A DNA stretch of 64,000 nucleotides from Ignavibacteria bacterium (GTDB taxonomy: Bacteria; Bacteroidota; Ignavibacteria; UBA10030), in NCBI GenBank assembly GCA_016873805.1, contig VGVZ01000008.1, positions 2,592 to 66,591 on the forward strand. Reading direction: 5' to 3'. Under the pieces are notes generated by a model. The model searched no databases, was not told where the DNA came from, and saw only the letters and a list, made by a program, of their open reading frames with translations. Of the stretch, positions 2,345 to 58,734 are shown one piece after another. Made by a program: the position numbers and the translations under genes. Every line of letters starts with the position of its first letter. The stretch's first letter is position 1.

Positions 2345-3310
2345 ATGAAAAAACATGATCTTTATGTCGGTATAGATGGCGGCGGTTCAAAAACTGCCGT
2401 TGTGCTGGCGGATCATCAGGGCATCACGCTTGCGCGCGTCAGCGGCGGACCATCCAACTTTCAAATCATCGGCACGGAAAAGGCTTCGAGTGTCGTCTTT
2501 TCGCTCATCGAGCATTGCTGTGCGACAACCCGTTACTCGATGAACAGTATTGTCTCGATCGTCGCGGGGTTGAGCGGGGCGGGGAGAGAGTCAGATCGGA
2601 GCCGGATGCGCGACGCGCTCATTGCCCGAGCCCGCCGGTCTGGAATCACCTTCGGCCATCTCGTGATTGAGAGTGATGCCCGCGTCGCGCTGGAAGGAGC
2701 GTTTCGTGGAAAGCCGGGGACCATTTTGATCGCCGGTACCGGTTCCATTGCCCTCGGCAAAGCACTGAACGGCTCGATTCATCGCGTGGGGGGGTGGGGG
2801 AGAGTGATCGGCGACGAAGGGAGCGGATACGCGATCGGGCAGGAGAGTTTGAACGTCGTCAGTCGGCACCATGACGGAAGGATTTCCGCGCCCGTTCTGG
2901 CGAAGCTTATTGCAGAACGATTCGGCCTCGATGCACAGGAGCGGATCATCACCGCGGTGTACCGCGAACAGTTTGATTTGGCCTCGCTCGTTCCCGTTGT
3001 CTTGGAGGCGGCCGAGAAGGGGGATGTCGAATCGCGGAGAATCGTCACCCACGCGGCGGTACAATTGAGCGAAATGGTCCGTGCTCTCGTCCTCAAGCTC
3101 GAGGGTGCCAGCCGCGGAATGAGGCGACAGAAACTCCCGCTGGCCATGCTGGGAGGATTGCTGACGAACGAAACCGTGCTCACGAAAATCCTCGCTCAGA
3201 AAATCGTCTTCTCGCTCCCGCAGATCACGATTTCAAACGCAGAACTTCCTCCAGAGGAGGGAGCGCTGCTCCTTGCAATGCACACGGCAAAAACATCGAA
3301 CTGGGTATGA
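2345..3310 (+). CDS. BadF/BadG/BcrA/BcrD-type ATPase; N-acetylglucosamine / MurNAc kinase-like sugar kinase
   Basis: LYVGIDGGGSKT phosphate-1 motif, ILIAGTGS and GDEGSGYAIG motifs of the ASKHA/BadF family. The ORF track starts at 2183. A start at the ATG at 2345 (MKKHDLYVGIDGGGS) is favoured. The stop overlaps the start of the next gene (ATGA at 3307-3310). Confidence 0.7.
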   Translation: MKKHDLYVGIDGGGSKTAVVLADHQGITLARVSGGPSNFQIIGTEKASSVVFSLIEHCCATTRYSMNSIVSIVAGLSGAGRESDRSRMRDALIARARRSGITFGHLVIESDARVALEGAFRGKPGTILIAGTGSIALGKALNGSIHRVGGWGRVIGDEGSGYAIGQESLNVVSRHHDGRISAPVLAKLIAERFGLDAQERIITAVYREQFDLASLVPVVLEAAEKGDVESRRIVTHAAVQLSEMVRALVLKLEGASRGMRRQKLPLAMLGGLLTNETVLTKILAQKIVFSLPQITISNAELPPEEGALLLAMHTAKTSNWV

Positions 3311-6231
3311 CGGCAAATTCCCTTTCCCTCCGATCGATCTCCAACAAACTGTCGGCATCTATCGCCGGCCTTCTTCTCGGATTTGGTCTTTTCAGCTGTA
3401 CACCGGTTCAGCAAGTCTCGCGGCAATTGCCCGAGGAGCCGATTCCGGCCAATCCCATCAGTATTGAACAGATCGACCCGACGAGCAGCTGGGTCGTCGA
3501 CATCCTCGCCGGGATGTCGCTCGAGGAAAAGGCGGCTCAGGTTGTGTTCGCGCGGGCAGAAGGTTCATACCTCAGCTGGGACGATGAACGCTGGCAGGTG
3601 ATGGAGCGGCTGGCGAAGGAAGGAAAGATTGGGGGATTTGTTTTTTTTGCAGGGGATGTCTACGAGTATGCGGTGCACGCGAACAAATTGCAGGCACTCG
3701 CAAAGACTCCGCTCCTCATCGGCGCCGATTTCGAGTTCGGTGCCGCCATGCGTGTACGACGCGCCACACTCTTCCCGCGCGCAATGCTTGTCGGTGCCAC
3801 ACGCAATCCGGACTATGCCTATCGAATGGGGCGGGCCGTCGGCCGTGAAGCGCGTGCATTGGGAGTCCATCAGGTCTATGCGCCCGTCGTCGATATCAAT
3901 AACAATCCGCTCAATCCTGTTATCAACACCCGGGCATTCGGGGAGAATCCTCAGCTTGTTTCAGAAATGGGAATCGGGTTTGTCCGCGGGCTTCAAGAAG
4001 AAGGGGTTATCGCGACAGCGAAGCACTTCCCGGGACATGGGGACACAGGCATTGATTCTCACCTTGATCTACCGGTTCTGAATTTTAGCCGCGAGCGTCT
4101 TGATTCGATCGAGCTGGTCGTCTTCAAGAAGGCGATTCAGAACGGCGTGCTCTCGATCATGGTTGCCCATCTCGCCATTCCATCGCTCGAACCCTCGCGC
4201 GGCGTGCCGGCCACACTTTCCCACAACATCACGACGAAGATCCTGAGAGAAGAATTGGGATTCGAGGGGCTCGCCGTGACCGACGCAATGGAGATGAGAG
4301 GGCTTTCTCGGGGCTTTTCGAATGCTGAGGCGGCAGTCCGTGCGATCCAAGCGGGAGCGGACGCGGTTCTCCTGCCGCTGGATGTCGAGGGGGCAATCGC
4401 GGCGATTGTGGAGGCCGTTCGCCGAGGGACGATTTCGGAATCGCGTCTCGACAGTTCGGTGTGCCGAATCCTCGGTTTGAAAGAGAGTCTGGGGCTTGAC
4501 AAAGACCGATTCGTCTCGCTCGATAACGTCTTCAAAGTGGTGGGCACGGGCGATCACAGAAGATTGGCGCAGATCATCGCCCGCGACGGCGTGACCCTTC
4601 TGCAGAACAACCGAAGCCTCCTCCCGCTGCCGCGCAATCAGCGAAGAAGGATCTTGAGCATCTCGCTCTCTGACGCCGAGGATCCCTCCGCCGGGAATCT
4701 CTTTCGCTCGCTGGCCGCACGCCGGACCTACGGCATTCAGCATGTGAGGATTGACCCGCGCACGACCGCAGCCGAATTCGACGCAATCCTCCAGCGGGCG
4801 GGTGCGTCCGACATCATCCTGCTTCATCTATATGTGAAAACACGCTCGGGTGAAAACACCGGGACGCTCCAGAACCAGCATGCGCAGTTCATCGCGACCC
4901 TGCTGAAGCTGAAAAAGAAAACGGCGGTGATTTCGTTCGGAAATCCCTACATCGTCAGCGACATGCAGAGCGCGGATGCCGTTCTACTCGGGTACAGCGA
5001 AGCAGAGGTAGTAATCGAGGCGGCGGTTGAGATTCTCTTCGGCGAAGCGGATGCGCGGGGAAAACTCCCGATTTCGATTCCTCCCGCGTTTGCCTACGGA
5101 ACCGGAGTTGAACTGAAAAAATCAACGCTGCGCGAATCGGATCAATTCATCGTCGGATCGTCGCAGGACAGATTTTCCGATGTTGACGATGTGGTGGAGC
5201 AGGCGATCCGCGATTCTGCCTTCCCGGGAGCCGTCCTCGCGGTTGTGAAAGACGGCGTGCTGATCCATCACAAGGCGTATGGGAGGTATGAGTACGATCC
5301 GTTCGCGGACGCGATCACGACGGAAACGATGTTCGACCTCGCGTCTCTGACAAAAGTCGTTGCAACGACGAGCGCGGTCATGCGGTTGGTCGATGAGCAA
5401 TTGATCACGCTCGAGGATCCTGTCGCCAAACACCTCCCCGCGTTTGGACAAAATGGCAAAGAGAACACCACGATCTACAACCTCATGGTCCACAACAGCG
5501 GCTTGCCCGCGTGGAAAAGGTTCTACGAGTTCTGCAAAACGCCGCAGGAAGTAGTTGACTCGGTCTTTGCGAGCCCTCTCGTGTATCCGACAGGCGATTC
5601 CACCGCGTACAGCGACCTGGGATTCATTACACTGGGCAAGCTGGTCGAAAAAGTTGCCGGCGTTCCGATCGATCGTTACGCGGATTCTCTCTTTTTCAAA
5701 CCCCTCAACATGACGAACACGATGTTCAATCCGCCGGCAAGGTTCCTCGGCCGGATCGCGCCGACGGAGGTCGATTCGTTCTGGCAAAAAACCTACATGC
5801 CGGTGCGCGGCCGTGTCCACGATGAGAACGCAGCGGTTCTCGGAGGGATCTCAGGTCACGCGGGATTGTTTTCGACGGCGGGGGATCTCGCGATCATGAT
5901 GCAGATGCTGATGAACGACGGCGTCTATGGGGCCGATCGCTATCTTGCGGCAGAGACGATCCGTCGATTCACAAAGCGGCAGTCGTCCGCGAGTACGCGC
6001 GCCATCGGATGGGATACGCGCAGTCCGCTGCGGTCATGGTCGGGGAGTCTATTGTCCAATCGCACGTTTCTTCACACCGGTTTTACCGGAACGTCGATCG
6101 CGGCGGATCCTGAGCGCAATCTGGTCATCATCTTTCTCACGAACCGTGTCTATCCGACAAGAACCAGTACGAAGATTTCTGAAGTCCGTCCCCGCGTGCA
6201 CGATGCCGTCGTGCGCGCACTTTCAAACTAG
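3307..6231 (+). CDS. Fusion lipoprotein with an N-terminal glycoside hydrolase family 3 domain (NagZ-like beta-N-acetylhexosaminidase) and a C-terminal serine beta-lactamase/PBP-like hydrolase domain
   Basis: Lipoprotein signal (LLLGFGLFSC). GH3 N-terminal domain motifs include KHFPGHGDTGIDSHLDLPVL and the VAHL...P region. The C-terminal half has the class C beta-lactamase/esterase S-x-x-K motif (FDLASLTKVV) and HNSGLP. The gene is 974 aa. Confidence 0.85.
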   Translation: MTANSLSLRSISNKLSASIAGLLLGFGLFSCTPVQQVSRQLPEEPIPANPISIEQIDPTSSWVVDILAGMSLEEKAAQVVFARAEGSYLSWDDERWQVMERLAKEGKIGGFVFFAGDVYEYAVHANKLQALAKTPLLIGADFEFGAAMRVRRATLFPRAMLVGATRNPDYAYRMGRAVGREARALGVHQVYAPVVDINNNPLNPVINTRAFGENPQLVSEMGIGFVRGLQEEGVIATAKHFPGHGDTGIDSHLDLPVLNFSRERLDSIELVVFKKAIQNGVLSIMVAHLAIPSLEPSRGVPATLSHNITTKILREELGFEGLAVTDAMEMRGLSRGFSNAEAAVRAIQAGADAVLLPLDVEGAIAAIVEAVRRGTISESRLDSSVCRILGLKESLGLDKDRFVSLDNVFKVVGTGDHRRLAQIIARDGVTLLQNNRSLLPLPRNQRRRILSISLSDAEDPSAGNLFRSLAARRTYGIQHVRIDPRTTAAEFDAILQRAGASDIILLHLYVKTRSGENTGTLQNQHAQFIATLLKLKKKTAVISFGNPYIVSDMQSADAVLLGYSEAEVVIEAAVEILFGEADARGKLPISIPPAFAYGTGVELKKSTLRESDQFIVGSSQDRFSDVDDVVEQAIRDSAFPGAVLAVVKDGVLIHHKAYGRYEYDPFADAITTETMFDLASLTKVVATTSAVMRLVDEQLITLEDPVAKHLPAFGQNGKENTTIYNLMVHNSGLPAWKRFYEFCKTPQEVVDSVFASPLVYPTGDSTAYSDLGFITLGKLVEKVAGVPIDRYADSLFFKPLNMTNTMFNPPARFLGRIAPTEVDSFWQKTYMPVRGRVHDENAAVLGGISGHAGLFSTAGDLAIMMQMLMNDGVYGADRYLAAETIRRFTKRQSSASTRAIGWDTRSPLRSWSGSLLSNRTFLHTGFTGTSIAADPERNLVIIFLTNRVYPTRTSTKISEVRPRVHDAVVRALSN

Positions 6232-25691: not shown

Positions 25692-26747
25692 TTGAAGGGG
25701 AAGGACACAATGAAGCTGTCTGATTTCAAATATCCGCTTCCACGGAATCTCATTGCGAAGTATCCGGCGCAGCCGCGCGATCGCTCGCGGCTGCTGGTGC
25801 TGAACAGGCGCGACGAATCCTTCGAGGACAAGAAGTTCTCCGATATCGCGAGCTATTTTTCGAAAGGGGACTGCCTCGTGGTCAATGAAACCCGTGTGTT
25901 TCAGGCGCGGCTCTTCGGGAAGAAGGAAAAGACGAATGCCAAAATCGAGGTGTTCCTCCTGCGCGAACTGAACGCAGAAGAAAACATCTGGGACGTCATC
26001 GTTGATCCGGCCCGAAAGGTCCGCATCGGAAACAAGATCTTCTTTGATGACGGCAAGTTATGGTGTGAGGTGATCGACAACACGACGTCGCGGGGGAGGA
26101 CTGTTCGGTTCAACCATCGGGGTGATTTCTTCAAGATCATCGAGCGGATCGGGATGACCCCGTTGCCGTACTACATCAAGCGAGAGCCGACGGCAAAGGA
26201 CAAAGCGGCGTACCAGACTGTCTATGCGCGTGTGCTCGGAGCCGTTGCGGCACCGACGGCGGGTCTCCATTTCACCAAACCACTCCTCAGGAAAATCCAG
26301 GCGAAAGGAGTCAAAGTTGTGCCGGTTCTCCTGCACGTCGGATTGGGCTCGTTCAGGGCCGTGGAGGTCGAAGATCTCACCAAGCATAAGATGGATTCGG
26401 AGTACTACGAGATCTCCCCTGGAGCAGCGGACATCGTGAACAAGACGATCGACACGAGGCACAATGTGTTCGTGGTTGGAACAAGTACGTGCCGGGCGCT
26501 GGAGTCGAGTGTCACGTCGGATGGACATTTGAAACCGTCGCGCGGTTGGACCGACAAGTTCATTTTCCCACCGTACGATTTCAAAATCACCGATCGACTC
26601 ATCACGAATTTTCATCTTCCGGAATCGACGTTGCTGATGCTCGTGAGTGCGTTCGCCGGTTATGACTTCACGATGCAGGCGTACAAGCGGGCCATTAAAT
26701 CATCTTATCGATTCTACAGCTATGGTGATGCTATGCTGGTTCTGTGA
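25692..26747 (+). CDS. queA: S-adenosylmethionine:tRNA ribosyltransferase-isomerase
   Basis: MKLSDFKYPLPRNLIAKYPAQPRDRSRLLVL and PTAGLHFT motifs. Alternative start at the second ATG, 25710. Confidence 0.9.
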   Translation: MKGKDTMKLSDFKYPLPRNLIAKYPAQPRDRSRLLVLNRRDESFEDKKFSDIASYFSKGDCLVVNETRVFQARLFGKKEKTNAKIEVFLLRELNAEENIWDVIVDPARKVRIGNKIFFDDGKLWCEVIDNTTSRGRTVRFNHRGDFFKIIERIGMTPLPYYIKREPTAKDKAAYQTVYARVLGAVAAPTAGLHFTKPLLRKIQAKGVKVVPVLLHVGLGSFRAVEVEDLTKHKMDSEYYEISPGAADIVNKTIDTRHNVFVVGTSTCRALESSVTSDGHLKPSRGWTDKFIFPPYDFKITDRLITNFHLPESTLLMLVSAFAGYDFTMQAYKRAIKSSYRFYSYGDAMLVL

Positions 26748-27475
26748 GGATGGCGATCATGGCGAAATCGAGGCCAAAGGTCTACGCGATCATCCCAGCC
26801 GCGGGTTCAGGCACGCGGCTGGGATCTCCCGTAAAGAAGCAGTTCGTACATCTTGGGGACCGTCCCCTGCTCGTTCATACGGTTCAGCGGTTCGAAGAGT
26901 GTGCAGAGGTTGACGAGATCGTGATTGCCGTTCCGGAAGAAACTCTCGCGGAAACCAAATCGCTGATCTCCCGATACCGTCTGCACAAAGTAAGCAAGAT
27001 CGTCACAGGGGCAGAGCGACGCCAGGGATCTGTGGAAAACGCCTTTCGCAGGATCCGGACAAAGGCGAGCGATATCGTTCTCGTGCACGATGGGGTTCGG
27101 CCTTTTATCGAACCGGCGAAAATCCGTGAAGTTGTCAACGTCTGTCGGGAATTTGACGCCGCTGCACTGGCCGTCCAACCGAAGGAGACGGTCCGCCGCT
27201 CCAACGGTGGAAGCCATTTCGAACAGACGATCGATCGGGCGGCGCTCTGGTTGATGCAAACGCCCCAGGGCTTTCGTGCCTCGATCCTGAAGCGGGCGTT
27301 CATGGCCGCCCATGCGAGTCGATACCATGCCACCGATGAGGTGGCGCTGGTCGAGCGGCTGGGCATCAAACCGCGTATCATCATCGGTTCATACGACAAT
27401 ATCAAGATTACAACGCCCGAAGATCTCGAATTGGGGTCATTGATACTGGAACGATGGAAATCACAGAGGACGTGA
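26744..27475 (+). CDS. ispD: 2-C-methyl-D-erythritol 4-phosphate cytidylyltransferase
   Basis: AIIPAAGSGTRLGSPVKKQF and VLVHDGVRPF motifs. Overlaps the queA stop. Confidence 0.87.
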   Translation: MRMAIMAKSRPKVYAIIPAAGSGTRLGSPVKKQFVHLGDRPLLVHTVQRFEECAEVDEIVIAVPEETLAETKSLISRYRLHKVSKIVTGAERRQGSVENAFRRIRTKASDIVLVHDGVRPFIEPAKIREVVNVCREFDAAALAVQPKETVRRSNGGSHFEQTIDRAALWLMQTPQGFRASILKRAFMAAHASRYHATDEVALVERLGIKPRIIIGSYDNIKITTPEDLELGSLILERWKSQRT

Positions 27476-27551
27476 CACACCTTGCATCTCGCGGGTGTTT
27501 TGGCTATTTTGGTATGAAATTGTCTGACAGGTATTGCGGCGAAGGGATTGC

Positions 27552-28232
27552 ATGGAAAATCTTCTTGTTGTTCTTATTCTCAGCTATGTCGTCGGATCGA
27601 TCCCGACAAGCATCATGCTCTCGAAGTGGTTTCACGGATTCGATATCCGTACCAAGGGGAGCGGAAATGCCGGCGGGACGAACGTCTTTCGAATCCTCGG
27701 GTGGAAAGCCGGCCTGTTCGTCGGCGTGATCGACCTCAGCAAAGGATTGATTGCCGCTACGCTGATCGCACGGCTCTTCTGGGACCCATCGCTCCCGTTC
27801 TACAACCGAACGCCGTTCGACGATTTCACCATCGTTCAAATGCTTTGCGGAGCGGCGGCGATCATCGGTCACATCTGGACCGTCTTTGCCGGGTTCCGCG
27901 GAGGAAAGGGAATCGCGACCGCCGCGGGTATGCTCGTCGGTCTCGCCCCTACAGAATTTCTGGTATCGATCCTGATCTTCGGACTCGTCATCGTTGCCTG
28001 GGGGTACGTCTCGCTGGGATCCGTCAGCGCCGCCGTGGCATTTCCGACAACTCTCTTCGTTCGACACACCGTGTTCGGCGTCCAAATCGACAGCTACAAT
28101 ACGCTCATCGTATTCAGTCTTGCAGTTGCTCTGCTTCTGATTTATTCCCATCGACAGAATATCAAGCGATTGCTTACAGGAACCGAGAATAGGATCTCGC
28201 GGTTCAACAAGAGACGATCTGTCAATCCATAA
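27552..28232 (+). CDS. plsY: Glycerol-3-phosphate acyltransferase PlsY (acyl-phosphate dependent)
   Basis: LILSYVVGSIPTS, GSGNAGGTNVFR and GHIWTVFAGFRGGKGIATAAG motifs. The ORF track starts at TTG 27534; the ATG at 27552 is favoured. The overlapping 27548..28192 frame is an Arg-rich artefact. Confidence 0.85.
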   Translation: MENLLVVLILSYVVGSIPTSIMLSKWFHGFDIRTKGSGNAGGTNVFRILGWKAGLFVGVIDLSKGLIAATLIARLFWDPSLPFYNRTPFDDFTIVQMLCGAAAIIGHIWTVFAGFRGGKGIATAAGMLVGLAPTEFLVSILIFGLVIVAWGYVSLGSVSAAVAFPTTLFVRHTVFGVQIDSYNTLIVFSLAVALLLIYSHRQNIKRLLTGTENRISRFNKRRSVNP

Positions 28233-28342
28233 GGCTTAGCATCACTCCCGTGAACCCGTACACACCGTACGGGTTCATTGCGTTCTTCCCCACGCGCCCG
28301 AATCTGTATCGGATGCGCGCCTTTCGCTGGAGAACACAATCT

Positions 28343-29338
28343 ATGAACATTGCCGTCCTTGGTGCGGGAAGCTGGGGAACAACCCTGGCGCTGTTGCTCA
28401 TCGAGAAGGGATATGATGTCCGTCTCTGGGAGTACCACACGGACAATGTCAACGTCATGCGCGAGACACGGGAGAACGTTGCATTCCTCCCCGGTATTCT
28501 CTTGCCTGAGCGACTCCTCGTCACCAACGACATCGATGAGGCATGCCGATCCGCCGGCATGCTGGTGACGGCGGTCCCGTCTCAACACCTACGCTCTGTT
28601 CTCAGCCATCTCTCCACGAAGAAGCTGAGTGAGACAATCATCTGCAATGTCGCAAAGGGAATCGAGACTGAGTCACTCATGACGATGACGGAGGTCATCG
28701 AGGATTCTCTTCCGCAATGCCGCAAGGATAACCTTGCCGTTCTCTCGGGACCAAGCCATGCCGAGGAAGTCTCCAAGCGCATCCCCACCGCAATCGTTGC
28801 AGCAAGCGTCAAGAGCAGGACTGCCAAGATCGTTCAAGACGTCTTCTTGACTCCGTACTTTCGTGTGTACGTGAACGAAGATCTCAGAGGAGTGGAACTG
28901 GGCGGATCGATCAAGAACGTCATCGCTGTCGCGGCTGGAATCAGTGACGGTGCGGGTTTTGGCGATAACACCAAAGCCGCGATCATGACGCGGGGCATCT
29001 ATGAGATCACCCGACTGGGGGTCAAGATGGGGGCACAGCCACGAACGTTTGCCGGATTATCAGGAATCGGAGATCTCATCGTGACGTGCATGAGCAAACA
29101 CAGTCGCAACCGATACGTTGGCGAACAGGTGGGGGCGGGTAAGCCCCTGCAAGAGGTCCTCAAGAGCATGGTGATGATCGCTGAAGGAGTCCCGACGACA
29201 AAATCGGTACATGCCCTTTCACAGAAACTCGGTGTTGAAATGCCGATCGCGGGGGCCGTCTATCAGGTTCTCTTCGAGGGAAGAAATCCGCATGACGCAA
29301 CCGAAGATCTCATGACGAGAGACGCGAAAGGGGAATAG
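28343..29338 (+). CDS. gpsA: NAD(P)H-dependent glycerol-3-phosphate dehydrogenase
   Basis: MNIAVLGAGSWGTALA Rossmann N-terminus and the GpsA C-terminal domain. The start is set at the ATG at 28343 rather than the ORF-track start 28250. Confidence 0.9.
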   Translation: MNIAVLGAGSWGTTLALLLIEKGYDVRLWEYHTDNVNVMRETRENVAFLPGILLPERLLVTNDIDEACRSAGMLVTAVPSQHLRSVLSHLSTKKLSETIICNVAKGIETESLMTMTEVIEDSLPQCRKDNLAVLSGPSHAEEVSKRIPTAIVAASVKSRTAKIVQDVFLTPYFRVYVNEDLRGVELGGSIKNVIAVAAGISDGAGFGDNTKAAIMTRGIYEITRLGVKMGAQPRTFAGLSGIGDLIVTCMSKHSRNRYVGEQVGAGKPLQEVLKSMVMIAEGVPTTKSVHALSQKLGVEMPIAGAVYQVLFEGRNPHDATEDLMTRDAKGE

Positions 29339-29453
29339 CCGTCTGCGTGCCAAACCACGCCGTTGATGTTTGAGTCTCTTTCCACTTCTTGCGTCCCGTT
29401 TTCCGCGTCGCCACCTTCCTACCTTGCTTATCCCTGAGCTTTTGAGTATTTTT

Positions 29454-30137
29454 GTGACACATCTAGCAGAAATCCACAATATCTGTCCAATTCTCGTGAT
29501 TTCGTATCTCTTATTCTTCTTGGGCGGGTATCTCCCCGGCTCATTTCCGACAGCCTATCTTCTCGTCCGAAAGTGGGCGAATCTTGACATTCGCTCCGAG
29601 GGGAGTGGAAATGTCGGTGGTTACAACACGTACAGGGTCACCGGTTCTTCCCGCATGGGGACCGTTGTGGGGCTTATCGACGGTGCGAAGGGCTTGATCG
29701 CGGTCGTGGGGGCCCTGTTGGTCGGGGGAGATTTCTGGCATGTCGCGTTGGCGCTGATTGGGGCGATCGTCGGTCACAATTATTCGGTGTGGCTAAAGTT
29801 CCGAGGCGGACGCGGTCTCGCGACGGCCGCTGGGGGTGTCCTGCCGATCGGAGTGATGTACGGCGTCCATTGGTGCATCGTCTGGATTGTCGCGAAATCT
29901 CTGGGTCGGGGAATTCTCACGGCAAACGTATTCGCCGTACTGCTTGCTCCTCTCCTCGTCTACCTCACGCCCGACAGCGTCCTCAGGTTCTTCATGACAA
30001 GCAACGTGCCGCTGGCTGATTACCGACTGCTGAGCGTTTTGCTTAGTGTCGTGCTTCTGATGGGCCATGTGAACGGCATAAAAGAGGTCGTTGCCGACCT
30101 CAAAGGAGTTCAGCCGGAAATCGAGAATCCGGAATGA
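29454..30137 (+). CDS. Second, divergent PlsY-family glycerol-3-phosphate acyltransferase paralogue
   Basis: ISYLLFFLGGYLPGSFPTAYLL, GSGNVGGYNTYR and GHNYSVWLKFRGGRGLATAAG motifs parallel the PlsY motifs but with substitutions (GGYN for GGTN, GGRG for GGKG). No ATG start. Candidate starts are GTG 29454 and GTG 29496; the ORF track uses TTG 29370. Confidence 0.65.
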   Translation: MTHLAEIHNICPILVISYLLFFLGGYLPGSFPTAYLLVRKWANLDIRSEGSGNVGGYNTYRVTGSSRMGTVVGLIDGAKGLIAVVGALLVGGDFWHVALALIGAIVGHNYSVWLKFRGGRGLATAAGGVLPIGVMYGVHWCIVWIVAKSLGRGILTANVFAVLLAPLLVYLTPDSVLRFFMTSNVPLADYRLLSVLLSVVLLMGHVNGIKEVVADLKGVQPEIENPE

Positions 30138-46745: not shown

Positions 46746-46772
46746 TTCTGTCGATCACGAATTGAGGAAGCG

Positions 46773-47021
46773 GTGCCAACTCCGAATCAGCTGATGATTT
46801 ATATTGTCCCGGGGAAGTGCGATTTCTGCGGCTGCTGTGTCGGCGTCTGCCCCGAAGATGCCATCGAATTGATGGAGTCGAAGATTTCCATCATCGAAGA
46901 ACGCTGCACCAACTGCAAAAAGTGTGTTTGGGCGTGTCCATGGGAGGTCATCGAATTTCATCGCGATGGAGTCGCCCATCTCCCCAAAGAACTAAGCTCT
47001 CTACCGAATGTGCGCGCATGA
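46773..47021 (+). CDS. 2x[4Fe-4S] ferredoxin
   Basis: Two C-x2-C-x2-C-x3-CP motifs (CDFCGCCVGVCP and CTNCKKCVWACP) in 82 aa. The stop overlaps the start of the downstream geranylgeranyl reductase gene (ATGA at 47018-47021). Confidence 0.7.
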   Translation: MPTPNQLMIYIVPGKCDFCGCCVGVCPEDAIELMESKISIIEERCTNCKKCVWACPWEVIEFHRDGVAHLPKELSSLPNVRA

Positions 47022-48184
47022 AACCCAAATATGATGTGATCGTTGTCGGAGCCGGACCCGCGGGATCAACGGCGGCTCGCTCTGTTGCCTCGGGGGGAGC
47101 ATCTGTTCTGGTGCTGGAAAAAGACCGCGATGTCGGGTACCCCGTTCGATGTGGAGAAGCTGTCAGTCACGAAGGAGTCGTCCAATTCATCGATCCCGAT
47201 CCGCGTTGGATTGCCTCGACCGTCACACGATTCAAACTGGTTGCCCCGAACGGGAAGGAGGTCGTTCCGCGACTCGATGGAACGGGCTACGTTCTCGAGC
47301 GACGGATGTTCGACTACGAGCTCGCCAAGTTGGCTGCTCGCGCCGGGGCCGACATCATTACAAAAGCCTACGTCTACGATCTGCTGAGGAATGGAAATGA
47401 GGTCGTCGGCGTCAGGACGCTCATCGATGATAGGAAGATTGACATCTCCGGAGCGATCATCGTGGCTGCCGATGGCGTCGAGAGTCGCGTGGGAAAATGG
47501 ATCGGCATCGACACGACGTGTCACATCCGGGACATGGAAAGTTGTGCGCAGATGACGATCTCGGGCATCGAAATTGACGAAGATATTCTGGAGTTCTATT
47601 TCGGAGACGATGTGGCACCGGGGGGATATCTCTGGGTCTTCCCCAAGGGGAGAGAAAGTGCGAATGTCGGCATCGGAATCAATGTGCAGAGTGCGAAGAA
47701 CCGATCGGCGATTCGATTCCTCACCGACTTTGTCGAGAAGAAGTATCCGAAGGCCGCGGTTCTGACACGGATTGCCGGAGGTGTGCCGTGTGCCAGAACG
47801 TGCGACACGATCGTCAAAGAGAATGTGATGCTTGTGGGTGATGCCGCACGCCAGGTGAATCCGCTCTCGGGGGGAGGTATTATCAGCGGCATGATCGGCG
47901 GGATGATCGCCGGCGAAGTTGCCGTCGAGGCGCTACAGAAGAAGGATCTTTCGCATCTGAATGAATATGAGCGTCGCTGGCATCGACGACTTGGCTGGCG
48001 TCATGAAGTGTTCTATCGCATCAAGGAAGCAATCGGGGAGTTTTCGGACGAAACGTTGAACAAGATTGCCGACAGCGCGTTGAAACTCCCGCAAAACAAA
48101 CAGACTCTGGGAGGGATTTTTCGCACGGCGCTCTGGAATCAGCCCTCACTTCTCATCGATGTCGCCAAAGTGTTCATTTCTTGA
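47018..48184 (+). CDS. Geranylgeranyl reductase family FAD-dependent oxidoreductase
   Basis: YDVIVVGAGPAGSTAARS dinucleotide-binding motif, the RCGEAVS and GDAAR...P.SG.GI motifs typical of the GGR/ChlP family, and about 390 aa length. The start is the ATG at 47018 within the longer ORF-track frame. Confidence 0.78.
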   Translation: MKPKYDVIVVGAGPAGSTAARSVASGGASVLVLEKDRDVGYPVRCGEAVSHEGVVQFIDPDPRWIASTVTRFKLVAPNGKEVVPRLDGTGYVLERRMFDYELAKLAARAGADIITKAYVYDLLRNGNEVVGVRTLIDDRKIDISGAIIVAADGVESRVGKWIGIDTTCHIRDMESCAQMTISGIEIDEDILEFYFGDDVAPGGYLWVFPKGRESANVGIGINVQSAKNRSAIRFLTDFVEKKYPKAAVLTRIAGGVPCARTCDTIVKENVMLVGDAARQVNPLSGGGIISGMIGGMIAGEVAVEALQKKDLSHLNEYERRWHRRLGWRHEVFYRIKEAIGEFSDETLNKIADSALKLPQNKQTLGGIFRTALWNQPSLLIDVAKVFIS

Positions 48185-50127: not shown

Positions 50128-51096
50128 ATGTCGAAATATACTCAGATCGACCTCTCAAAGATCAAGACGATCTCGATCGCGAAACGAAAAAGCAAAGTGA
50201 ACCCGAAGGACTTCGCTACGGTGGTGTCGGCAGAGACCGCGACGCTGGGCGAGTTCCTTGACTCGATTCCGCGAATCCTTGCGGGACAGGAGCTCAGAGA
50301 CCTCGCGGATGATGTCGTTCGCTCGCGCCGGACAGGGAAGCCGGTGATCCTTCTGATGGGAGCCCACGTGGTCAAGGTGGGGCTTTCTCCGATCGTCAAC
50401 GATCTGATCGCTTTGGGAGTCATTACGCACGTCGCCATGAACAGCGCCGCCGCCATTCACGATGTCGAAAGCGCAATGTGGGGCCATACCTCTGAGGATG
50501 TGGCCGCGAACATTCTGGACGGACGGTTTGGGATGTCGAAAGAAACAGGATCGTTTATCAACGATGCGCTGGCCAAGGGATTTCGTGAATCGTCGGAAGG
50601 ATACGGCGAAACGCTGGCTCGAAAGCTGATCCGGCTGAATGCCCGTCATCGAGAGCTCAGTATTCTCGCGACGTGCTATGATCATTCAATTCCGATTACC
50701 GTCCATGCGGCCATCGGTACCGATATTGTGCACCAACAAGCGACGATGGATGGCGCGGCAACCGGCGAGTTGAGCTTCCGCGATTTCAAGATCCTCGCCT
50801 CCTCGGTAAAAGACCTGATAGGCGGCGGCGTGGTCCTGAATGTCGGTTCGGCGGTGATTCTTCCCGAGGTTTTCCTGAAGGCCCTGACTGTGGCTCGCAA
50901 TCTCGGACACAAGGCGATGGGATTCTCCACGGCCAACTTCGACATGATCCGCCACTATCGTCCCACTGTCAATGTCGTCGAACGCCCAACAAAGCCCTCC
51001 GGCAAAGGGTATACATTGACCGGGCATCATGAAATCATGATTCCGCTGTTCGCCGCGATGATCAAGCAGCGGATGGGAAAAGCCCGCACCCGATGA
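50128..51096 (+). CDS. Deoxyhypusine synthase-like family protein (low-confidence call)
   Basis: A Rossmann-like segment (PVILLMGAHVVKVGLSPIVNDLIALGVITHVAMNSAAAIHDVESAM) and GGGVV...N motif resemble the DHS-like superfamily pattern (…TGASIVDMD… / …GGGVPKN…). Assignment is by recall only. Confidence 0.35.
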   Translation: MSKYTQIDLSKIKTISIAKRKSKVNPKDFATVVSAETATLGEFLDSIPRILAGQELRDLADDVVRSRRTGKPVILLMGAHVVKVGLSPIVNDLIALGVITHVAMNSAAAIHDVESAMWGHTSEDVAANILDGRFGMSKETGSFINDALAKGFRESSEGYGETLARKLIRLNARHRELSILATCYDHSIPITVHAAIGTDIVHQQATMDGAATGELSFRDFKILASSVKDLIGGGVVLNVGSAVILPEVFLKALTVARNLGHKAMGFSTANFDMIRHYRPTVNVVERPTKPSGKGYTLTGHHEIMIPLFAAMIKQRMGKARTR

Positions 51097-56100: not shown

Positions 56101-57902
56101 GGTACAAGTTCGATCTTGCGCATAGAAGAGCCAGAGCCGAATTTCCCTCGCCTGGCTTTTTCCGTTTTTCACTTCTTGTCGCACTCGTTGTGTCATCAAT
56201 CTCGATCACGCGAGCCCAGCACGGGCTTGAAGTGAGGAGCGTTCACATCCATGGACTGCGTGCCATCACAGATTCGGACGCGCTCTTCGCATGGAAGACC
56301 CAAACCGGCACACCCTTTCGAACACCCGACTTCGATTCCGATCTTCAACTCCTGATTTCCAAACTGCGCTACGAAGGATACACCCGAGCCCGGATCGACT
56401 CCGTCACGGTCGATACGGTCGACAAATCGACTCAGATCGCACTTCATCTTTGGCTTCACGAGGGGGAGCGCGCACTGATCGAGTCAATCGAGCTCATCGG
56501 GGATTCCGTGAGCGGCGAAGGATACCGGCGGTGGTTCGCGGAGTCGGCAGCGGGAACAGAATTCAGCGCGCGTCGGCTCGAATCGGAAATCGAGCAATTG
56601 CTTCGCTTCCTGGAGAAGGAGGGATACGCACTCGCCGGCGTCCGCATTGCCGACATCAGGTACGATCACACGGGCGAGCGAAGTACCGTTCGGATCGCCC
56701 TCCGGATCGATCGAGGAAATCGGATTCGGATACGCGGCCTGCGTATCACCGGCAACGCGCGCACGGCGGACAATGTCATAGTGCGTGAGGCGAGAATCGG
56801 CGAGAATCAACTCTTCGAACCTGATCTCCCTCTCCAGGTCAAGAGACGACTTGAGCGGCTGCAGCTGTTTTCCTCTGTTTCGATGCCTGAGGTCCATCTG
56901 CGCCCCGATAGCACGGTGGACCTCCGCGTGGAAGTTCAAGAGGGGAACACAAATCATTTCGACGGCATACTGGGCTATGTTCCCGATCCGCGCCCCGGAC
57001 GCAAGGGATTCTTCACCGGACTGATCGAGGTGAAGTTCCGGAATCTGCTAGGGACCGGAAGAAGACTCGCCGCGCGGTGGCATCGGCTGGACAATCATTC
57101 ACAAGAAATCGATCTCCGGTATCTTGAACCATGGATTGCCTCTCTCCCGCTGGACGGCGAGATTCATCTTGGTCAGCGTATCCAGGACTCAACCTACGTC
57201 CGCCGTCAGTATGGAATGAACCTTTCCGTGATGTTTTCGCAAGATCTCTCGGTGAGTACCTCGATGGAACGGACAGAGGTTGTTCCGGCGGAACGTCTCC
57301 GTCACCTCCAGGGAGAAGGGACGGAGTTGTTCCTTGGTCTCTCCATCCACTACGATTCGAAGGACGATCCGGTCACGCCGCGTGCCGGAGCCCTTTATCA
57401 AACGTCGTACGAAGCAGGCCGAAAGTCGGTTCGACAGCCGGACGGATCGACGGCGCGTGCGTGGACCGACCGGATCACTCTCGATCTCGAGTATTATTTC
57501 TCTCCGGTCGATCGCCAGGTCATCATGGCGGCGCTTCACGGACGAGACTACCGGGCACCGGACATGGCCGCCGGCGATCTGTTTCGGCTAGGGGGAACCA
57601 ACACCTTACGTGGATATCGAGAATCGCAGTTCCTCGGTTCGCGGCTCGCCTGGATCAATCTTGAATATCGCTTGCTCATCGGAGGGCGATCATATGTCGC
57701 CGGATTCGTTGACGGGGGGTATATCTATTCACCTCCGGCTCCACGTTCGGGCCTGAGCCGGCAGGAATTGACCCGACTCGGGTATGGGGTTGGGGTGAGG
57801 CTGGATTCGGCCATCGGACTTCTGCGCATCGGATTGGCATTCGGCAAGGGCGATTCCTTCAACACCGCAAAACTGCATTTTGGACTCATCAATGAATTCT
57901 GA
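56082..57902 (+). CDS. Omp85/BamA/TamA-family outer-membrane protein (POTRA domains plus 16-strand beta-barrel), shorter than canonical BamA
   Basis: Signal peptide (FFRFSLLVALVVSSISITRAQ), POTRA-like repeats, and an Omp85 barrel with the C-terminal aromatic signature (LHFGLINEF). No ATG start. The ORF-track GTG 56082 overlaps the upstream gene; TTG 56115 is an alternative. Confidence 0.72.
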   Translation: MGENTLRYKFDLAHRRARAEFPSPGFFRFSLLVALVVSSISITRAQHGLEVRSVHIHGLRAITDSDALFAWKTQTGTPFRTPDFDSDLQLLISKLRYEGYTRARIDSVTVDTVDKSTQIALHLWLHEGERALIESIELIGDSVSGEGYRRWFAESAAGTEFSARRLESEIEQLLRFLEKEGYALAGVRIADIRYDHTGERSTVRIALRIDRGNRIRIRGLRITGNARTADNVIVREARIGENQLFEPDLPLQVKRRLERLQLFSSVSMPEVHLRPDSTVDLRVEVQEGNTNHFDGILGYVPDPRPGRKGFFTGLIEVKFRNLLGTGRRLAARWHRLDNHSQEIDLRYLEPWIASLPLDGEIHLGQRIQDSTYVRRQYGMNLSVMFSQDLSVSTSMERTEVVPAERLRHLQGEGTELFLGLSIHYDSKDDPVTPRAGALYQTSYEAGRKSVRQPDGSTARAWTDRITLDLEYYFSPVDRQVIMAALHGRDYRAPDMAAGDLFRLGGTNTLRGYRESQFLGSRLAWINLEYRLLIGGRSYVAGFVDGGYIYSPPAPRSGLSRQELTRLGYGVGVRLDSAIGLLRIGLAFGKGDSFNTAKLHFGLINEF

Positions 57903-58734
57903 CAAGCTGCAGGCGTACCTTCAACTGCTCCGCCCCCTGAACGTTCTCATCGCCGTTCTCTCCATTGCTGCCGCGTCAATTCTGGCCTCGCACCAATCAT
58001 TCGACTGGATCGCCATCGTTCTCGCATCGCTCGCGGGCGGACTGATCGCCGGCGGAGCGAATGCGATCAACGACTACTTCGATATCGAGATCGATCGCGT
58101 GAACAAACCGAATCGTCCGCTGCCTCGAGGAGCACTGCGTCCGGCCGACGCTTACGCGCTCTGGCTCGCGGTTTCGATCACCGGCGTCTTCGTCAACGTT
58201 CTTCTCAACGGGGCGGCGTTGATCATCGCGTTTTCGTCAGTCGTAATCCTGTATCTCTACAGCGCCGTCTACAAGCGATCGATCCTGGTGGGGAACGTTA
58301 TCGTGGCGTTCATGACGGGATTGGCGTTCATCTACGGCGGCATCGTGGTCGGTCATGTCGAACGTGCGATTATTCCAGCACTGTTCGCTTTCCAGATCAA
58401 CTTCGCCAGGGAGCTTGTCAAGGATGTCGAGGATATCGAGGGGGATGCAAAGGAACACGCCGGGACTTTTGCGGTGAAGCATGGTCCGCGCCCTGCACTC
58501 CTTCTCGCCACAATAATCCTTCTTGCATTGATCGCAACGACAGCGTATCCTTATCTGGCGAGTATCTATTCGCTCGACTATCTGGTGATTGTTGCGATCG
58601 TTGATGTGGTGCTCCTCTTTGTCGTGATTTCGATGTGGAGAGATCAAACTCCAAAAAATCTCGGTCGTCTCAGCGCGCTCTTGAAATGGAATATGCTTCT
58701 GGGACTCGTCGCCATCTATCTCGGAGCGGGATGA
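57892..58734 (+). CDS. UbiA-family prenyltransferase whose signature matches the DGGGP synthase / ChlG / homogentisate-prenyltransferase clade
   Basis: NAINDYFDIEIDRVNKPNRPLPRGAL matches N-DYFD-EIDRiN-P-RPiP-G of archaeal digeranylgeranylglyceryl-phosphate synthase and ChlG/HPT. It is not the MenA/UbiA/CyoE pattern. 8-9 TM helices. The start is the ATG at 57892, overlapping the Omp85 gene end by 11 nt. Confidence 0.75.
   Translation: MNSDKLQAYLQLLRPLNVLIAVLSIAAASILASHQSFDWIAIVLASLAGGLIAGGANAINDYFDIEIDRVNKPNRPLPRGALRPADAYALWLAVSITGVFVNVLLNGAALIIAFSSVVILYLYSAVYKRSILVGNVIVAFMTGLAFIYGGIVVGHVERAIIPALFAFQINFARELVKDVEDIEGDAKEHAGTFAVKHGPRPALLLATIILLALIATTAYPYLASIYSLDYLVIVAIVDVVLLFVVISMWRDQTPKNLGRLSALLKWNMLLGLVAIYLGAG

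What the first reader, a model, noticed from the sequence alone, without database searches (positions are those of the whole stretch)
46773..48184. Translationally coupled ferredoxin and geranylgeranyl reductase pair (archaeal-style GGR partner arrangement)
An 82-aa 2x[4Fe-4S] ferredoxin ends in ATGA, overlapping the start of a GGR/ChlP-family flavoprotein (YDVIVVGAGPAGS...RCGEAV...GDAAR). A dedicated ferredoxin directly upstream of GGR is the arrangement described for archaeal digeranylgeranylglycerophospholipid reductases, which use a specific ferredoxin as electron donor. The lineage here appears to be a non-phototrophic FCB bacterium, and the window also carries the DGGGPS-like UbiA at 57892. 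Together these suggest a pathway that saturates isoprenoid chains on a prenyl-glycerol or other prenylated acceptor.
Basis: partly seen in the sequence, partly recalled or inferred. Interest (0 to 1): 0.55.

Follow-up and report, generated by a model that had tools for sequence, protein, structure and literature searches.

The report
Ferredoxin-partnered geranylgeranyl reductase in Ignavibacteria
A small iron-sulfur ferredoxin gene overlaps the start of a geranylgeranyl (prenyl-chain) reductase gene in an Ignavibacteria genome; this is the bacterial version of a two-gene unit that archaea use to saturate their ether lipids, so it is a real but largely anticipated piece of the "archaeal-type lipid genes in FCB bacteria" story.

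Summary
A 75-aa (82 from GTG) 2x[4Fe-4S] ferredoxin (46794-47021) ends in ATGA, which overlaps the start of a 388-aa GGR-family flavoprotein (47018-48184).

The pairing is not chance:
- The same short-linker ferredoxin sits directly upstream of GGR homologs in Ignavibacteria with unrelated flanks, and in Cloacimonetes, Delongbacteria, Fibrobacteria, Poribacteria and many Euryarchaeota.
- It is fused to GGR in at least 7 lineages.
- Ferredoxin and GGR divergence are correlated (Mantel r=0.84, p=2e-4).

The GGR is closest to Thermoplasma DGGR (3OZ2, 232 bits). It is far below the cut-offs for BchP/ChlP and MenJ.

The UbiA at 57892 is DGGGPS-like; its best solved relative is M. jannaschii DGGGPS. 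In Poribacteria its ortholog is clustered with Fd-GGR and a GGGPS gene. Published surveys report GGGPS and DGGGPS in Ignavibacteriae and a Euryarchaeota-like GGR in Cloacimonetes.

Best reading: a ferredoxin-dependent prenyl reductase, most likely saturating geranylgeranyl-glycerol ether lipids. The substrate is unproven and no GGGPS lies in the window. This is a new member of a known kind, of moderate interest.

Side finding: the Poribacteria GGRs carry an in-frame TGA at the catalytic Cys codon, so they are candidate selenoproteins.

The parts
46794..47021 (+). Ferredoxin gene, 75 aa from ATG 46794 (82 aa if GTG 46773 is used). It is a 2x[4Fe-4S] type with a short 17-residue inter-cluster linker and a ~25-aa C-terminal tail.
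   Evidence: Pfam Fer4 49.4 bits and Fer4_10 45.1 bits. The sequence is 66-93% identical in other Ignavibacteria. It scores 42-47 bits against GGR-linked ferredoxins of methanogens, versus 28.5 bits for the best free small ferredoxin in PDB.
46818..46853 (+). First cluster motif, C9-D-F-C12-G-C-C15-V-G-V-C19-P20.
   Evidence: Read directly from the sequence. Conserved in all 22 GGR-linked ferredoxins aligned.
46905..46940 (+). Second cluster motif, C38-T-N-C41-K-K-C44-V-W-A-C48-P49.
   Evidence: Read directly from the sequence. Conserved in the alignment.
47018..47021 (+). ATGA overlap: the GGR start codon (47018-47020) and the ferredoxin stop codon (47019-47021).
   Evidence: The same 4-nt overlap occurs in L005, L009, L088 and L089, and a 1-nt TGATG overlap in L014. 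It is absent in L006, L007 and L008.
47018..48184 (+). Geranylgeranyl reductase family flavoprotein, 388 aa.
   Evidence: PF22578 95.1 bits and TIGR02032 235.6 bits. 3OZ2 Ta0516 scores 231.8 bits over residues 4-354. P0001 is 100% identical and was read on 19 metagenome contigs.
47150..47152 (+). Codon of Cys45 (RCGEAV). It is equivalent to the catalytic Cys47 of S. acidocaldarius GGR.
   Evidence: Invariant column C45 in alignment A1 of 55 sequences. Its role is taken from PMC10821996.
47618..47644 (+). PGGYLWVFP, the PxxYxWxFP catalytic-cavity motif.
   Evidence: P201, Y204, W206 and F208 are invariant in A1. The motif definition is from PMC10821996.
57892..58734 (+). DGGGPS-like UbiA prenyltransferase. 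It is a candidate pathway partner, 9.7 kb downstream and not in the same operon. The ORF scan starts it at TTG 57880; gene callers start it at 57892.
   Evidence: PF01040 147 bits. NCBIfam PRK12884 236.5 (cut-off 269) and DGGGPS PRK12882 221.4 (cut-off 296). The best solved relative is 6M31 M. jannaschii DGGGPS at 153 bits, against 37 bits for chlorophyll synthase. The Poribacteria ortholog (175 bits) is clustered with Fd-GGR-GGGPS.

Best explanation
The two genes encode a two-component, ferredoxin-dependent prenyl-chain reductase of the euryarchaeal DGGR type.

The small 2x[4Fe-4S] protein acts as a dedicated electron-input subunit. It takes low-potential electrons from the cell's reduced ferredoxin or oxidoreductase pool and passes them one at a time through its two clusters to the FAD of the reductase. 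The reduced flavin, working with the invariant Cys45 and the PxxYxWxFP cavity, then saturates the C=C bonds of geranylgeranyl chains.

What is shown:
- family membership;
- all catalytic motifs;
- conserved adjacency, co-divergence and natural fusion of the two proteins.

What is inferred:
- electron flow from ferredoxin to FAD, by analogy with M. acetivorans GGR plus its neighbouring ferredoxin, and at fold level with FixC/FixX;
- the substrate.

The most likely substrate (about 50%) is a geranylgeranyl-glycerol ether lipid (GGGP/DGGGP or a derivative), made by a GGGPS encoded elsewhere in the genome and by the DGGGPS-like UbiA at 57892. That would give phytanyl-type ether lipids alongside the normal G3P/fatty-acid lipids (PlsY, GpsA and CdsA are in the same window).
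For: Family and motifs.

Closest characterised relative: Thermoplasma acidophilum DGGR (231.8 bits). The AF2 model of a fused homolog superposes on 3OZ2 at 1.9 A rmsd, and FixC (7KOE_C) ranks 8th.

Pair conservation with changing flanks: within Ignavibacteria, in Ca. Cloacimonetes, Delongbacteria, Fibrobacteria, Poribacteria, Methanobacteriota, Methanolliviera, Methanocellales, Methanothermococcus, Thermoplasmatota and Methanosarcinaceae.

Fusions: 6 of 150 cluster representatives, plus an Anaerolineae genome, are N-terminal Fd-GGR fusions.

Co-divergence: Fd and GGR identities are correlated, Mantel r=0.84 and p=2e-4, or r=0.58 and p=2e-4 after removing close duplicates.

No ferredoxin lies next to the distant homologs below 31% identity.

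Substrate link: in two diverged Poribacteria genomes the order is UbiA, DGGGPS-like UbiA (175 bits to the window UbiA), SpoU, Fd, GGR, GGGPS (PF01884, 144 bits).

Literature:
- M. acetivorans GGR needs the ferredoxin encoded beside it to reduce DGGGP, and an arCOG00958 4Fe-4S protein lies upstream of several euryarchaeal GGRs (PMC10821996; PMC11334171).
- All 12 FCB phyla surveyed have GGGPS and DGGGPS orthologs (PMC6431249).
- Ignavibacteriae genomes carry both (PMC7852524 supplement).
- Cloacimonetes GGGPS+DGGGPS make unsaturated archaeol-PG in E. coli, and their MAGs carry Euryarchaeota-like GGRs. The window GGR is 45% identical to a Cloacimonetes GGR with the same HMM score profile.
Against: - No GGGPS or G1P dehydrogenase is in the 64-kb window. 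I could not confirm a GGGPS in this genome; one search returned only Poribacteria-like proteins.
- The GGR fails every curated equivalog cut-off for archaeal DGGR (259 of 780, 177 of 580, 92 of 700).
- The UbiA is just below the DGGGPS cut-offs.
- In Ignavibacteria the UbiA is not next to Fd-GGR. In Delongbacteria the adjacent UbiA is a different, divergent one (25% identity).
- To my knowledge, isoprenoid ether lipids have not been reported from cultured Ignavibacteria.
- GGRs are promiscuous (PMC10821996).
- T. acidophilum DGGR works with NAD(P)H in vitro, so a strict need for ferredoxin is not guaranteed.
- The NJ tree is star-like and does not resolve who is sister to whom.
Confidence: 0.6

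Rival explanations
1. The same Fd-dependent reductase acts on a different prenylated compound. Candidates are the menaquinone-7 side chain, a polyprenol or dolichol-like glycan carrier, free GGPP (giving phytyl-PP), or a carotenoid end group (CruI-like 1,2-saturation).
For: The GGR family is promiscuous, and archaeal paralogs are proposed for quinones, polyprenols and carotenoids (PMC10821996). A BchP paralog in green sulfur bacteria is a carotenoid 1,2-reductase (PMC6166724). In Ignavibacteria the pair sits in an envelope-biogenesis block (GT9 heptosyltransferase, DUF3108, CdsA, Omp85). In Cloacimonetes a GT2 gene follows it. In Delongbacteria a non-DGGGPS UbiA precedes it. No GGGPS is in the window.
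Against: MenJ and BchP/ChlP models score far below the archaeal DGGR models. The flanking envelope genes are not conserved outside Ignavibacteria, whereas the only lipid-pathway neighbours seen elsewhere are GGGPS and the DGGGPS-like UbiA. The closest archaeal relatives with the same ferredoxin are the membrane-lipid DGGRs.
Confidence: 0.3
2. The ferredoxin is an unrelated neighbour, serving other enzymes or co-transcribed with dnaG by accident. The reductase would then use NAD(P)H directly, as T. acidophilum DGGR does in vitro.
For: The whole DnaG-to-MiaB block is syntenic among close Ignavibacteria, so adjacency within that group alone is weak evidence. In L007 and L008 the two genes are separated by 1 to 2.5 kb. 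Ta0516 uses NAD(P)H in vitro (PMC10821996).
Against: The pair persists where both flanks differ and across two domains of life. It is fused in at least 7 lineages and co-diverges. The Thermoplasma locus also has an arCOG00958 4Fe-4S protein.
Confidence: 0.05
3. It is a BchP/ChlP-type geranylgeranyl-(bacterio)chlorophyll or GGPP reductase of a phototroph.
For: It belongs to the same superfamily (TIGR02032). Ignavibacteria are relatives of Chlorobi.
Against: TIGR02023 scores 141 of 343 and TIGR02028 84 of 505. No pigment genes are among the ~50 window genes scanned. The lineage is non-phototrophic as far as I know. The closest homologs are in Cloacimonetes, Delongbacteria, Anaerolineae and methanogens.
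Confidence: 0.01

Closest known systems
Methanosarcina acetivorans GGR plus its adjacent ferredoxin (MA1484/MA1485; Isobe et al. 2014, as cited in PMC7852524, PMC10821996 and PMC11334171), and the arCOG00958-GGR pairs of other Euryarchaeota
   Same: A small 2x[4Fe-4S] ferredoxin lies immediately upstream on the same strand as a GGR carrying the Cys, PxxYxWxFP and LxGD motifs. A Methanosarcinaceae locus (L024) and Methanocellales, Methanolliviera, Methanothermococcus and Methanobacteriota loci show the same ferredoxin architecture. GGR identity is 36-43% and ferredoxin core identity 38-47% across these archaeal loci (for L024; for the others).
   Different: The host is a bacterium with an ordinary G3P/fatty-acid lipid gene set. 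The ferredoxin has an extra ~25-aa C-terminal tail and an extra Cys (C14). Activity and ferredoxin dependence are untested here. The original paper could not be read.
Thermoplasma acidophilum digeranylgeranylglycerophospholipid reductase Ta0516 (PDB 3OZ2)
   Same: It is the best solved relative: 231.8 bits, E 1.2e-67, aligned over residues 4-354. The fold match of the clade model is 1.9 A rmsd.
   Different: The window protein scores only 259 bits against the Thermoplasmatales equivalog model (cut-off 780). The RxxD motif reads RQVN. Ta0516 is assayed with NAD(P)H.
Ca. Cloacimonetes GGR, part of the proposed bacterial 'archaeal-type' lipid pathway (Villanueva et al. 2021, PMC7852524)
   Same: It belongs to the same bacterial GGR family: 45% identity, 365.6 bits, and the same HMM score profile. 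It is also preceded by an overlapping 59-aa ferredoxin. Both lineages are reported to carry GGGPS and DGGGPS homologs.
   Different: In Cloacimonetes, GGGPS and DGGGPS are co-localised and were tested in E. coli. In Ignavibacteria they are dispersed and untested. The paper's main text does not discuss a ferredoxin partner.
FixC/FixX (EtfABCX, PDB 7KOE)
   Same: FixC is a structural relative of the GGR fold (rank 8, E 4.6e-25; 45.9 bits by sequence). It works with a small ferredoxin-like subunit encoded beside it, which is a precedent for a bound Fe-S electron-relay subunit.
   Different: It has a different substrate (quinone) and is part of an ETF bifurcating complex. No etf genes are nearby. 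Similarity of the window ferredoxin to FixX was not tested.
BchP/ChlP, CruI (CT1232) and MenJ
   Same: Same flavoprotein superfamily; all reduce isoprenoid double bonds.
   Different: Model scores are far below cut-off (141 of 343, 84 of 505, 74 of 700). As far as I know, no dedicated ferredoxin gene is part of those systems.

Membership tests
Geranylgeranyl reductase superfamily (TIGR02032 / Pfam PF22578) | Score above the curated cut-offs of the family models | tested here: met
   TIGR02032 235.6 bits (cut-off 158.8); PF22578 95.1 bits (cut-off 27).
Geranylgeranyl reductase superfamily | GxGxxG FAD fold, catalytic Cys, PxxYxWxFP cavity motif and LxGD motif | tested here: met
   GAGPAG (11-16), C45, PGGYLWVFP (201-209) and LVGD (272-275). 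C45, Y204, W206, F208 and D275 are invariant in A1. The RxxD motif reads RQVN, which is the clade consensus.
Archaeal digeranylgeranylglycerophospholipid reductase (NCBIfam equivalogs NF041160, NF041080, NF041385) | Score above the equivalog cut-off | tested here: not met
   259.1 of 780, 177.3 of 580 and 92.3 of 700. NF041160 and NF041080 are nevertheless the best-scoring functional (equivalog-level) models.
Archaeal DGGR | Reduces DGGGP or archaetidyl lipids to phytanyl forms | not testable with these tools
   Needs an enzyme assay or heterologous reconstitution.
Ferredoxin-partnered GGR module (M. acetivorans type, arCOG00958 + GGR) | A small 2x[4Fe-4S] ferredoxin encoded immediately upstream on the same strand, conserved with the GGR | tested here: met
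   The window has the ATGA overlap. The arrangement is conserved in about 20 loci from bacteria and archaea and is fused in 7. Mantel r=0.84.
Ferredoxin-partnered GGR module | Reductase activity depends on the cognate ferredoxin | not testable with these tools
   Known only for M. acetivorans, from the literature.
BchP/ChlP geranylgeranyl diphosphate / chlorophyll reductase | Score above the TIGR02023 / TIGR02028 cut-offs, plus a pigment gene context | tested here: not met
   141.3 of 343.3 and 84.3 of 505.3. No bch/chl genes in the window.
MenJ menaquinone reductase | Score above the NF045655 cut-off | tested here: not met
   74 of 700.
2x[4Fe-4S] bacterial-type ferredoxin | Two CxxCxxCxxxCP motifs; Pfam Fer4 above cut-off | tested here: met
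   Motifs at residues 9-20 and 38-49. Fer4 49.4 (cut-off 21.1) and Fer4_10 45.1 (cut-off 25.5).
DGGGP synthase (for the UbiA at 57892) | Score above the curated DGGGPS equivalog cut-off; closest to characterised DGGGPS | tested here: inconclusive
   PRK12882 221.4 of 296 and PRK12884 236.5 of 269, both just below cut-off. The best PDB relative is M. jannaschii DGGGPS at 153.3 bits, full length, against 36.6 bits for chlorophyll synthase.
Complete archaeal-type ether-lipid pathway | GGGPS (PF01884) and a G1P source in the same genome | tested here: inconclusive
   None in the window. The search from a Poribacteria GGGPS listed only Poribacteria-like proteins. The literature reports GGGPS+DGGGPS in Ignavibacteriae, and no G1PDH in most FCB phyla.

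The most novel reading that the evidence does not exclude
Ignavibacteria, together with other bacteria that carry the same Fd-GGR unit (Cloacimonetes, Delongbacteria, Fibrobacteria, Poribacteria, Anaerolineae), would really make saturated phytanyl glycerol ether lipids. The ferredoxin-coupled reductase would be the final step. Mixed archaeal/bacterial membranes would then be widespread in living bacteria, and could be studied in cultivable Ignavibacteria.
Probability: 0.3. Interest if true: 0.75.

Novelty: new member of a known kind. Interest (0 to 1): 0.4.

Why it matters
Whether any living bacterium builds a mixed archaeal/bacterial membrane is an open question tied to the 'lipid divide'. 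So far the evidence is genes for GGGPS and DGGGPS plus heterologous expression of the Cloacimonetes enzymes. Saturation is the step that makes archaeal lipids chemically robust.

This analysis shows that the bacterial GGRs come with the same dedicated ferredoxin as the methanogen enzymes. In one phylum they sit in a single cluster with GGGPS and DGGGPS. That strengthens the case that the pathway is functional, and it tells experimenters to co-express the ferredoxin.

It also flags an annotation gap. In two of the four near-identical contigs, the gene caller replaced the ferredoxin with a spurious opposite-strand ORF, so the pair is easy to miss.

Tried and rejected
- Sigma-70 promoter and terminator scan around the pair: nothing above shuffled expectation. 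Bacteroidota promoters are not covered by this scan anyway.
- GC profile: uniform at 0.53-0.57, with no sign of recent transfer.
- NJ tree of 175 GGR homologs: it separates the Fd-linked clade from distant homologs, but it is star-like inside that clade, so no sister-group claim is made.
- B. subtilis PcrB as a probe for GGGPS in the window and all fetched loci: no hit. It even missed the Poribacteria group-II GGGPS, so this probe is uninformative. The Poribacteria GGGPS as a probe found nothing in the window or in the Ignavibacteria loci.
- Big-database search with the Poribacteria GGGPS: the top 120 were all Poribacteria-like, so it says nothing about Ignavibacteria.
The 80 loci are therefore a semi-random sample, not a census.
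- Delongbacteria UbiA next to Fd-GGR: it is not an ortholog of the window UbiA (25% identity), so it was rejected as a DGGGPS link.
- AF2 model of a natural fusion: pTM 0.86, but the ferredoxin domain has pLDDT of only 65-77 and no coordinates are returned, so no cluster-to-FAD distance could be derived.
- Isobe et al. 2014 is not held in the library; it is cited only through papers that describe it.
- Cluster-member look-ups did not reveal a cultured-strain ortholog.
Full report
**Observation**

The ORF scan and the raw sequence confirm a + strand ORF at 46773(GTG)/46794(ATG)-47021. Its TGA stop overlaps the ATG (47018) of a 388-aa ORF that ends at 48184 (gcgcgcATGAaaccc).

The small protein has two canonical CxxCxxCxxxCP motifs and passes Pfam Fer4 and several dicluster models. 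Alignment with homologs, which begin 'MIHIVPGKCDFCG...', and one of the public gene calls favour the ATG at 46794, giving 75 aa.

The large protein passes Pfam GGR_cat (95.1 bits) and NCBIfam TIGR02032 (235.6 bits, cut-off 158.8). It carries GAGPAG, the invariant Cys45 (RCGEAV), PGGYLWVFP and LVGDAA. These residues are invariant in a 55-sequence alignment that spans 31-100% identity.

**Lineage and context**

An identical protein (P0001) was read on 19 metagenome contigs. Thousands of homologs at 73-89% identity come from MAGs labelled Ignavibacterium, Ignavibacteriales or Bacteroidota, and many are auto-named 'digeranylgeranylglycerophospholipid reductase' by IMG.

The window is an ordinary chromosomal region. 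It carries GroES/EL, DnaG, LpxB/LpxK, IspD, two PlsY genes, GpsA, CdsA, MiaB-like, Omp85, RNase HII, a T9SS-tailed BNR protein and others. No pigment genes are present. GC content is uniform.

**Is the pairing meaningful?**

Among close Ignavibacteria the whole DnaG-Fd-GGR-GT9-DUF3108-GSU2086-CPBP-CdsA-MiaB block is syntenic, so adjacency there proves little. Four further lines of evidence do carry weight.

- *Retention when the flanks change.* The pair survives where the upstream side differs (L005) or the downstream side differs (L008-L011, 47-58% identity).
- *Recurrence in unrelated contexts.* It appears in Ca. Cloacimonetes (59-aa Fd overlapping GGR by 4 nt), Delongbacteria, Fibrobacteria and Poribacteria. 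It also appears in Methanobacteriota, Methanolliviera, Methanocellales, Methanothermococcus, Thermoplasmatota and Methanosarcinaceae. Homologs below 31% identity, and one Thermoplasmata locus, have no such neighbour.
- *Natural fusions.* Six of the 150 best 50%-cluster representatives, plus an Anaerolineae genome, are single polypeptides with the ferredoxin at the N-terminus.
- *Co-divergence.* Ferredoxin and GGR pairwise identities are correlated: Mantel r=0.84, p=2e-4, or r=0.58, p=2e-4 after removing near-duplicates.

All these ferredoxins share one compact architecture, with 15-17 residues between the CP that ends the first cluster motif and the first Cys of the second. The window ferredoxin core scores 42-47 bits against the methanogen GGR-linked ones. 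The best free small ferredoxin in PDB scores 28.5 bits.

The 4-nt overlap is common but not universal. L006 has a 108-nt gap, L007 has a 202-aa ORF inserted, and L008 has 2.5 kb between the genes. Translational coupling is therefore an inference.

**What kind of GGR is it?**

By sequence, the nearest solved protein is T. acidophilum DGGR Ta0516 (231.8 bits, E 1.2e-67). S. acidocaldarius GGR scores 93 bits and FixC 46 bits.

Among the NCBIfam models that name a specific function, the best is the Thermoplasmatales DGGR equivalog (259 bits). The others are the general DGGR model (177), BchP-ChlP (141), ChlP (84) and MenJ (74). All are below their equivalog cut-offs, so only superfamily membership is formally met.

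The Cloacimonetes GGR gives the same score profile and is 45% identical.

A model of a fused homolog (pLDDT 88, pTM 0.86) superposes on 3OZ2 at 1.9 A. FixC appears as the first non-GGR fold relative. This offers a structural precedent for a flavoprotein served by a small Fe-S subunit.

An NJ tree places every Fd-linked or fused sequence, and Ta0516, in one clade separate from the distant homologs without a ferredoxin. It does not resolve deeper relationships.

**Substrate**

The UbiA at 57892-58734 is DGGGPS-like. It scores 153 bits, full length, against M. jannaschii DGGGPS (6M31), compared with 37 bits for chlorophyll synthase. It falls just below the curated DGGGPS cut-offs.

The strongest new evidence comes from two diverged Poribacteria genomes. 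Their gene order is UbiA, DGGGPS-like UbiA (175 bits to the window UbiA), SpoU methylase, Fd, GGR, GGGPS (PF01884, 144 bits). This ties the Fd-GGR unit physically to both ether-bond-forming enzymes in a bacterium.

The literature adds three points:
- All 12 FCB phyla surveyed have GGGPS and DGGGPS orthologs, mostly without G1PDH (PMC6431249).
- Ignavibacteriae genomes carry both (PMC7852524 supplement).
- The Cloacimonetes enzymes make unsaturated archaeol-PG in E. coli, and their MAGs encode Euryarchaeota-like GGRs.

Against the ether-lipid reading:
- No GGGPS is in the window, and I could not confirm one for this genome.
- The UbiA is 9.7 kb away from the pair.
- GGRs are promiscuous.
- In Delongbacteria a different UbiA precedes the pair.

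I therefore put about 0.85 on 'ferredoxin-dependent GGR-type prenyl reductase' and about 0.5 on 'substrate is a geranylgeranyl-glycerol ether lipid'.

**Mechanism (inferred)**

- Low-potential electrons enter through the two [4Fe-4S] clusters of the small subunit and reduce the FAD of the reductase.
- The reduced flavin, with Cys45 and the aromatic PxxYxWxFP cavity, saturates the prenyl double bonds.
- The basis is the M. acetivorans precedent, as described in PMC10821996 and PMC11334171, together with the fusions.

**Novelty**

The archaeal Fd-GGR partnership, and the presence of archaeal-type lipid genes (including GGR) in FCB bacteria, are both published. In the papers I could search I did not find any of the following:
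- that the bacterial GGRs carry the same dedicated ferredoxin;
- that the ferredoxin is fused to GGR in some lineages;
- that Poribacteria cluster it with GGGPS and DGGGPS.

For the window itself this is a new member of a known kind, of moderate interest (0.4).

**Side observations**

- In both Poribacteria genomes the GGR has an in-frame TGA exactly at the catalytic Cys codon, with the rest of the ORF intact.
- A 17-nt stretch that forms a hairpin 13 nt downstream of that TGA is identical in both genomes, while the neighbouring third codon positions vary. The fold energy is not significant on its own.
- No paper in the library links selenocysteine to GGR.
- Gene callers replaced the ferredoxin with a spurious 74-aa minus-strand ORF in two of the four near-identical contigs.

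Noticed in passing
L014 3986-5179 (TGA at 4121-4123); L090 4747-5943 (TGA at 4882-4884): The Poribacteria GGR genes have an in-frame TGA exactly at the invariant catalytic Cys codon (APVR-TGA-AEG). The rest of the ~398-aa ORF is intact in two diverged genomes. A 17-nt stretch, GGCACAGCGTCGCTGTG, is identical in both and forms a hairpin 13 nt downstream, while flanking third codon positions vary. This is a candidate selenocysteine-containing GGR. The fold z-score alone is not significant, and no literature was found.
   Followed up: partly
L014 884-6004; L090 781-6747: Poribacteria gene cluster: UbiA, DGGGPS-like UbiA, SpoU methylase, ferredoxin, GGR, GGGPS (PcrB family). It is an almost complete archaeal-type ether-lipid set in one bacterial locus. 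A third Poribacteria genome (L091) has UbiA...SpoU-GGGPS without Fd-GGR.
   Followed up: partly
P0151, P0168, P0191, P0202, P0234, P0266; L016 3788-5089: Natural single-polypeptide fusions of the 2x[4Fe-4S] ferredoxin (N-terminal) with GGR. One is from an Anaerolineae MAG. The others are unnamed cluster representatives.
   Followed up: partly
window 46755-46979 (- strand); L002/L003 9738-9962: In two of the four near-identical public contigs, the gene caller annotated a spurious 74-aa minus-strand ORF instead of the ferredoxin. The Fd-GGR pairing is therefore invisible in those annotations.
   Followed up: yes
L088 9209-9808: In a Ca. Cloacimonetes MAG, the gene directly after Fd-GGR encodes a 199-aa protein with a borderline CTP_transf_1 match (23.3 bits, cut-off 24), followed by a GT2. 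It might be a small cytidylyltransferase of the CarS/CdsA clan. CarS was reported missing in Cloacimonetes.
   Followed up: no
L089 6879-9194: Delongbacteria have a divergent UbiA prenyltransferase (25% identical to the window UbiA; best model only 51 bits) directly upstream of the overlapping Fd-GGR pair, preceded by a QueG-like Fe-S protein.
   Followed up: partly
window 27534-30137: Two PlsY (G3P acyltransferase) paralogs flank GpsA (G3P dehydrogenase), and IspD lies just upstream (26744-27475). The canonical bacterial G3P lipid route and the MEP pathway are thus encoded in the same window as the archaeal-type genes.
   Followed up: no
window 3307-6231: A 974-aa protein that fuses glycoside hydrolase family 3 domains with a C-terminal beta-lactamase-family domain.
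   Followed up: no
window 50128-51096: A GSU2086-family protein (400.7 bits). It is a conserved member of the Ignavibacteria block downstream of GGR (GT9, DUF3108, GSU2086, CPBP protease, zinc-ribbon protein, CdsA). Its function is unknown.
   Followed up: no
L007 5141-5749: In one Ignavibacteria MAG, a 202-aa ORF with no Pfam match is inserted between the ferredoxin and GGR, breaking the overlap.
   Followed up: partly
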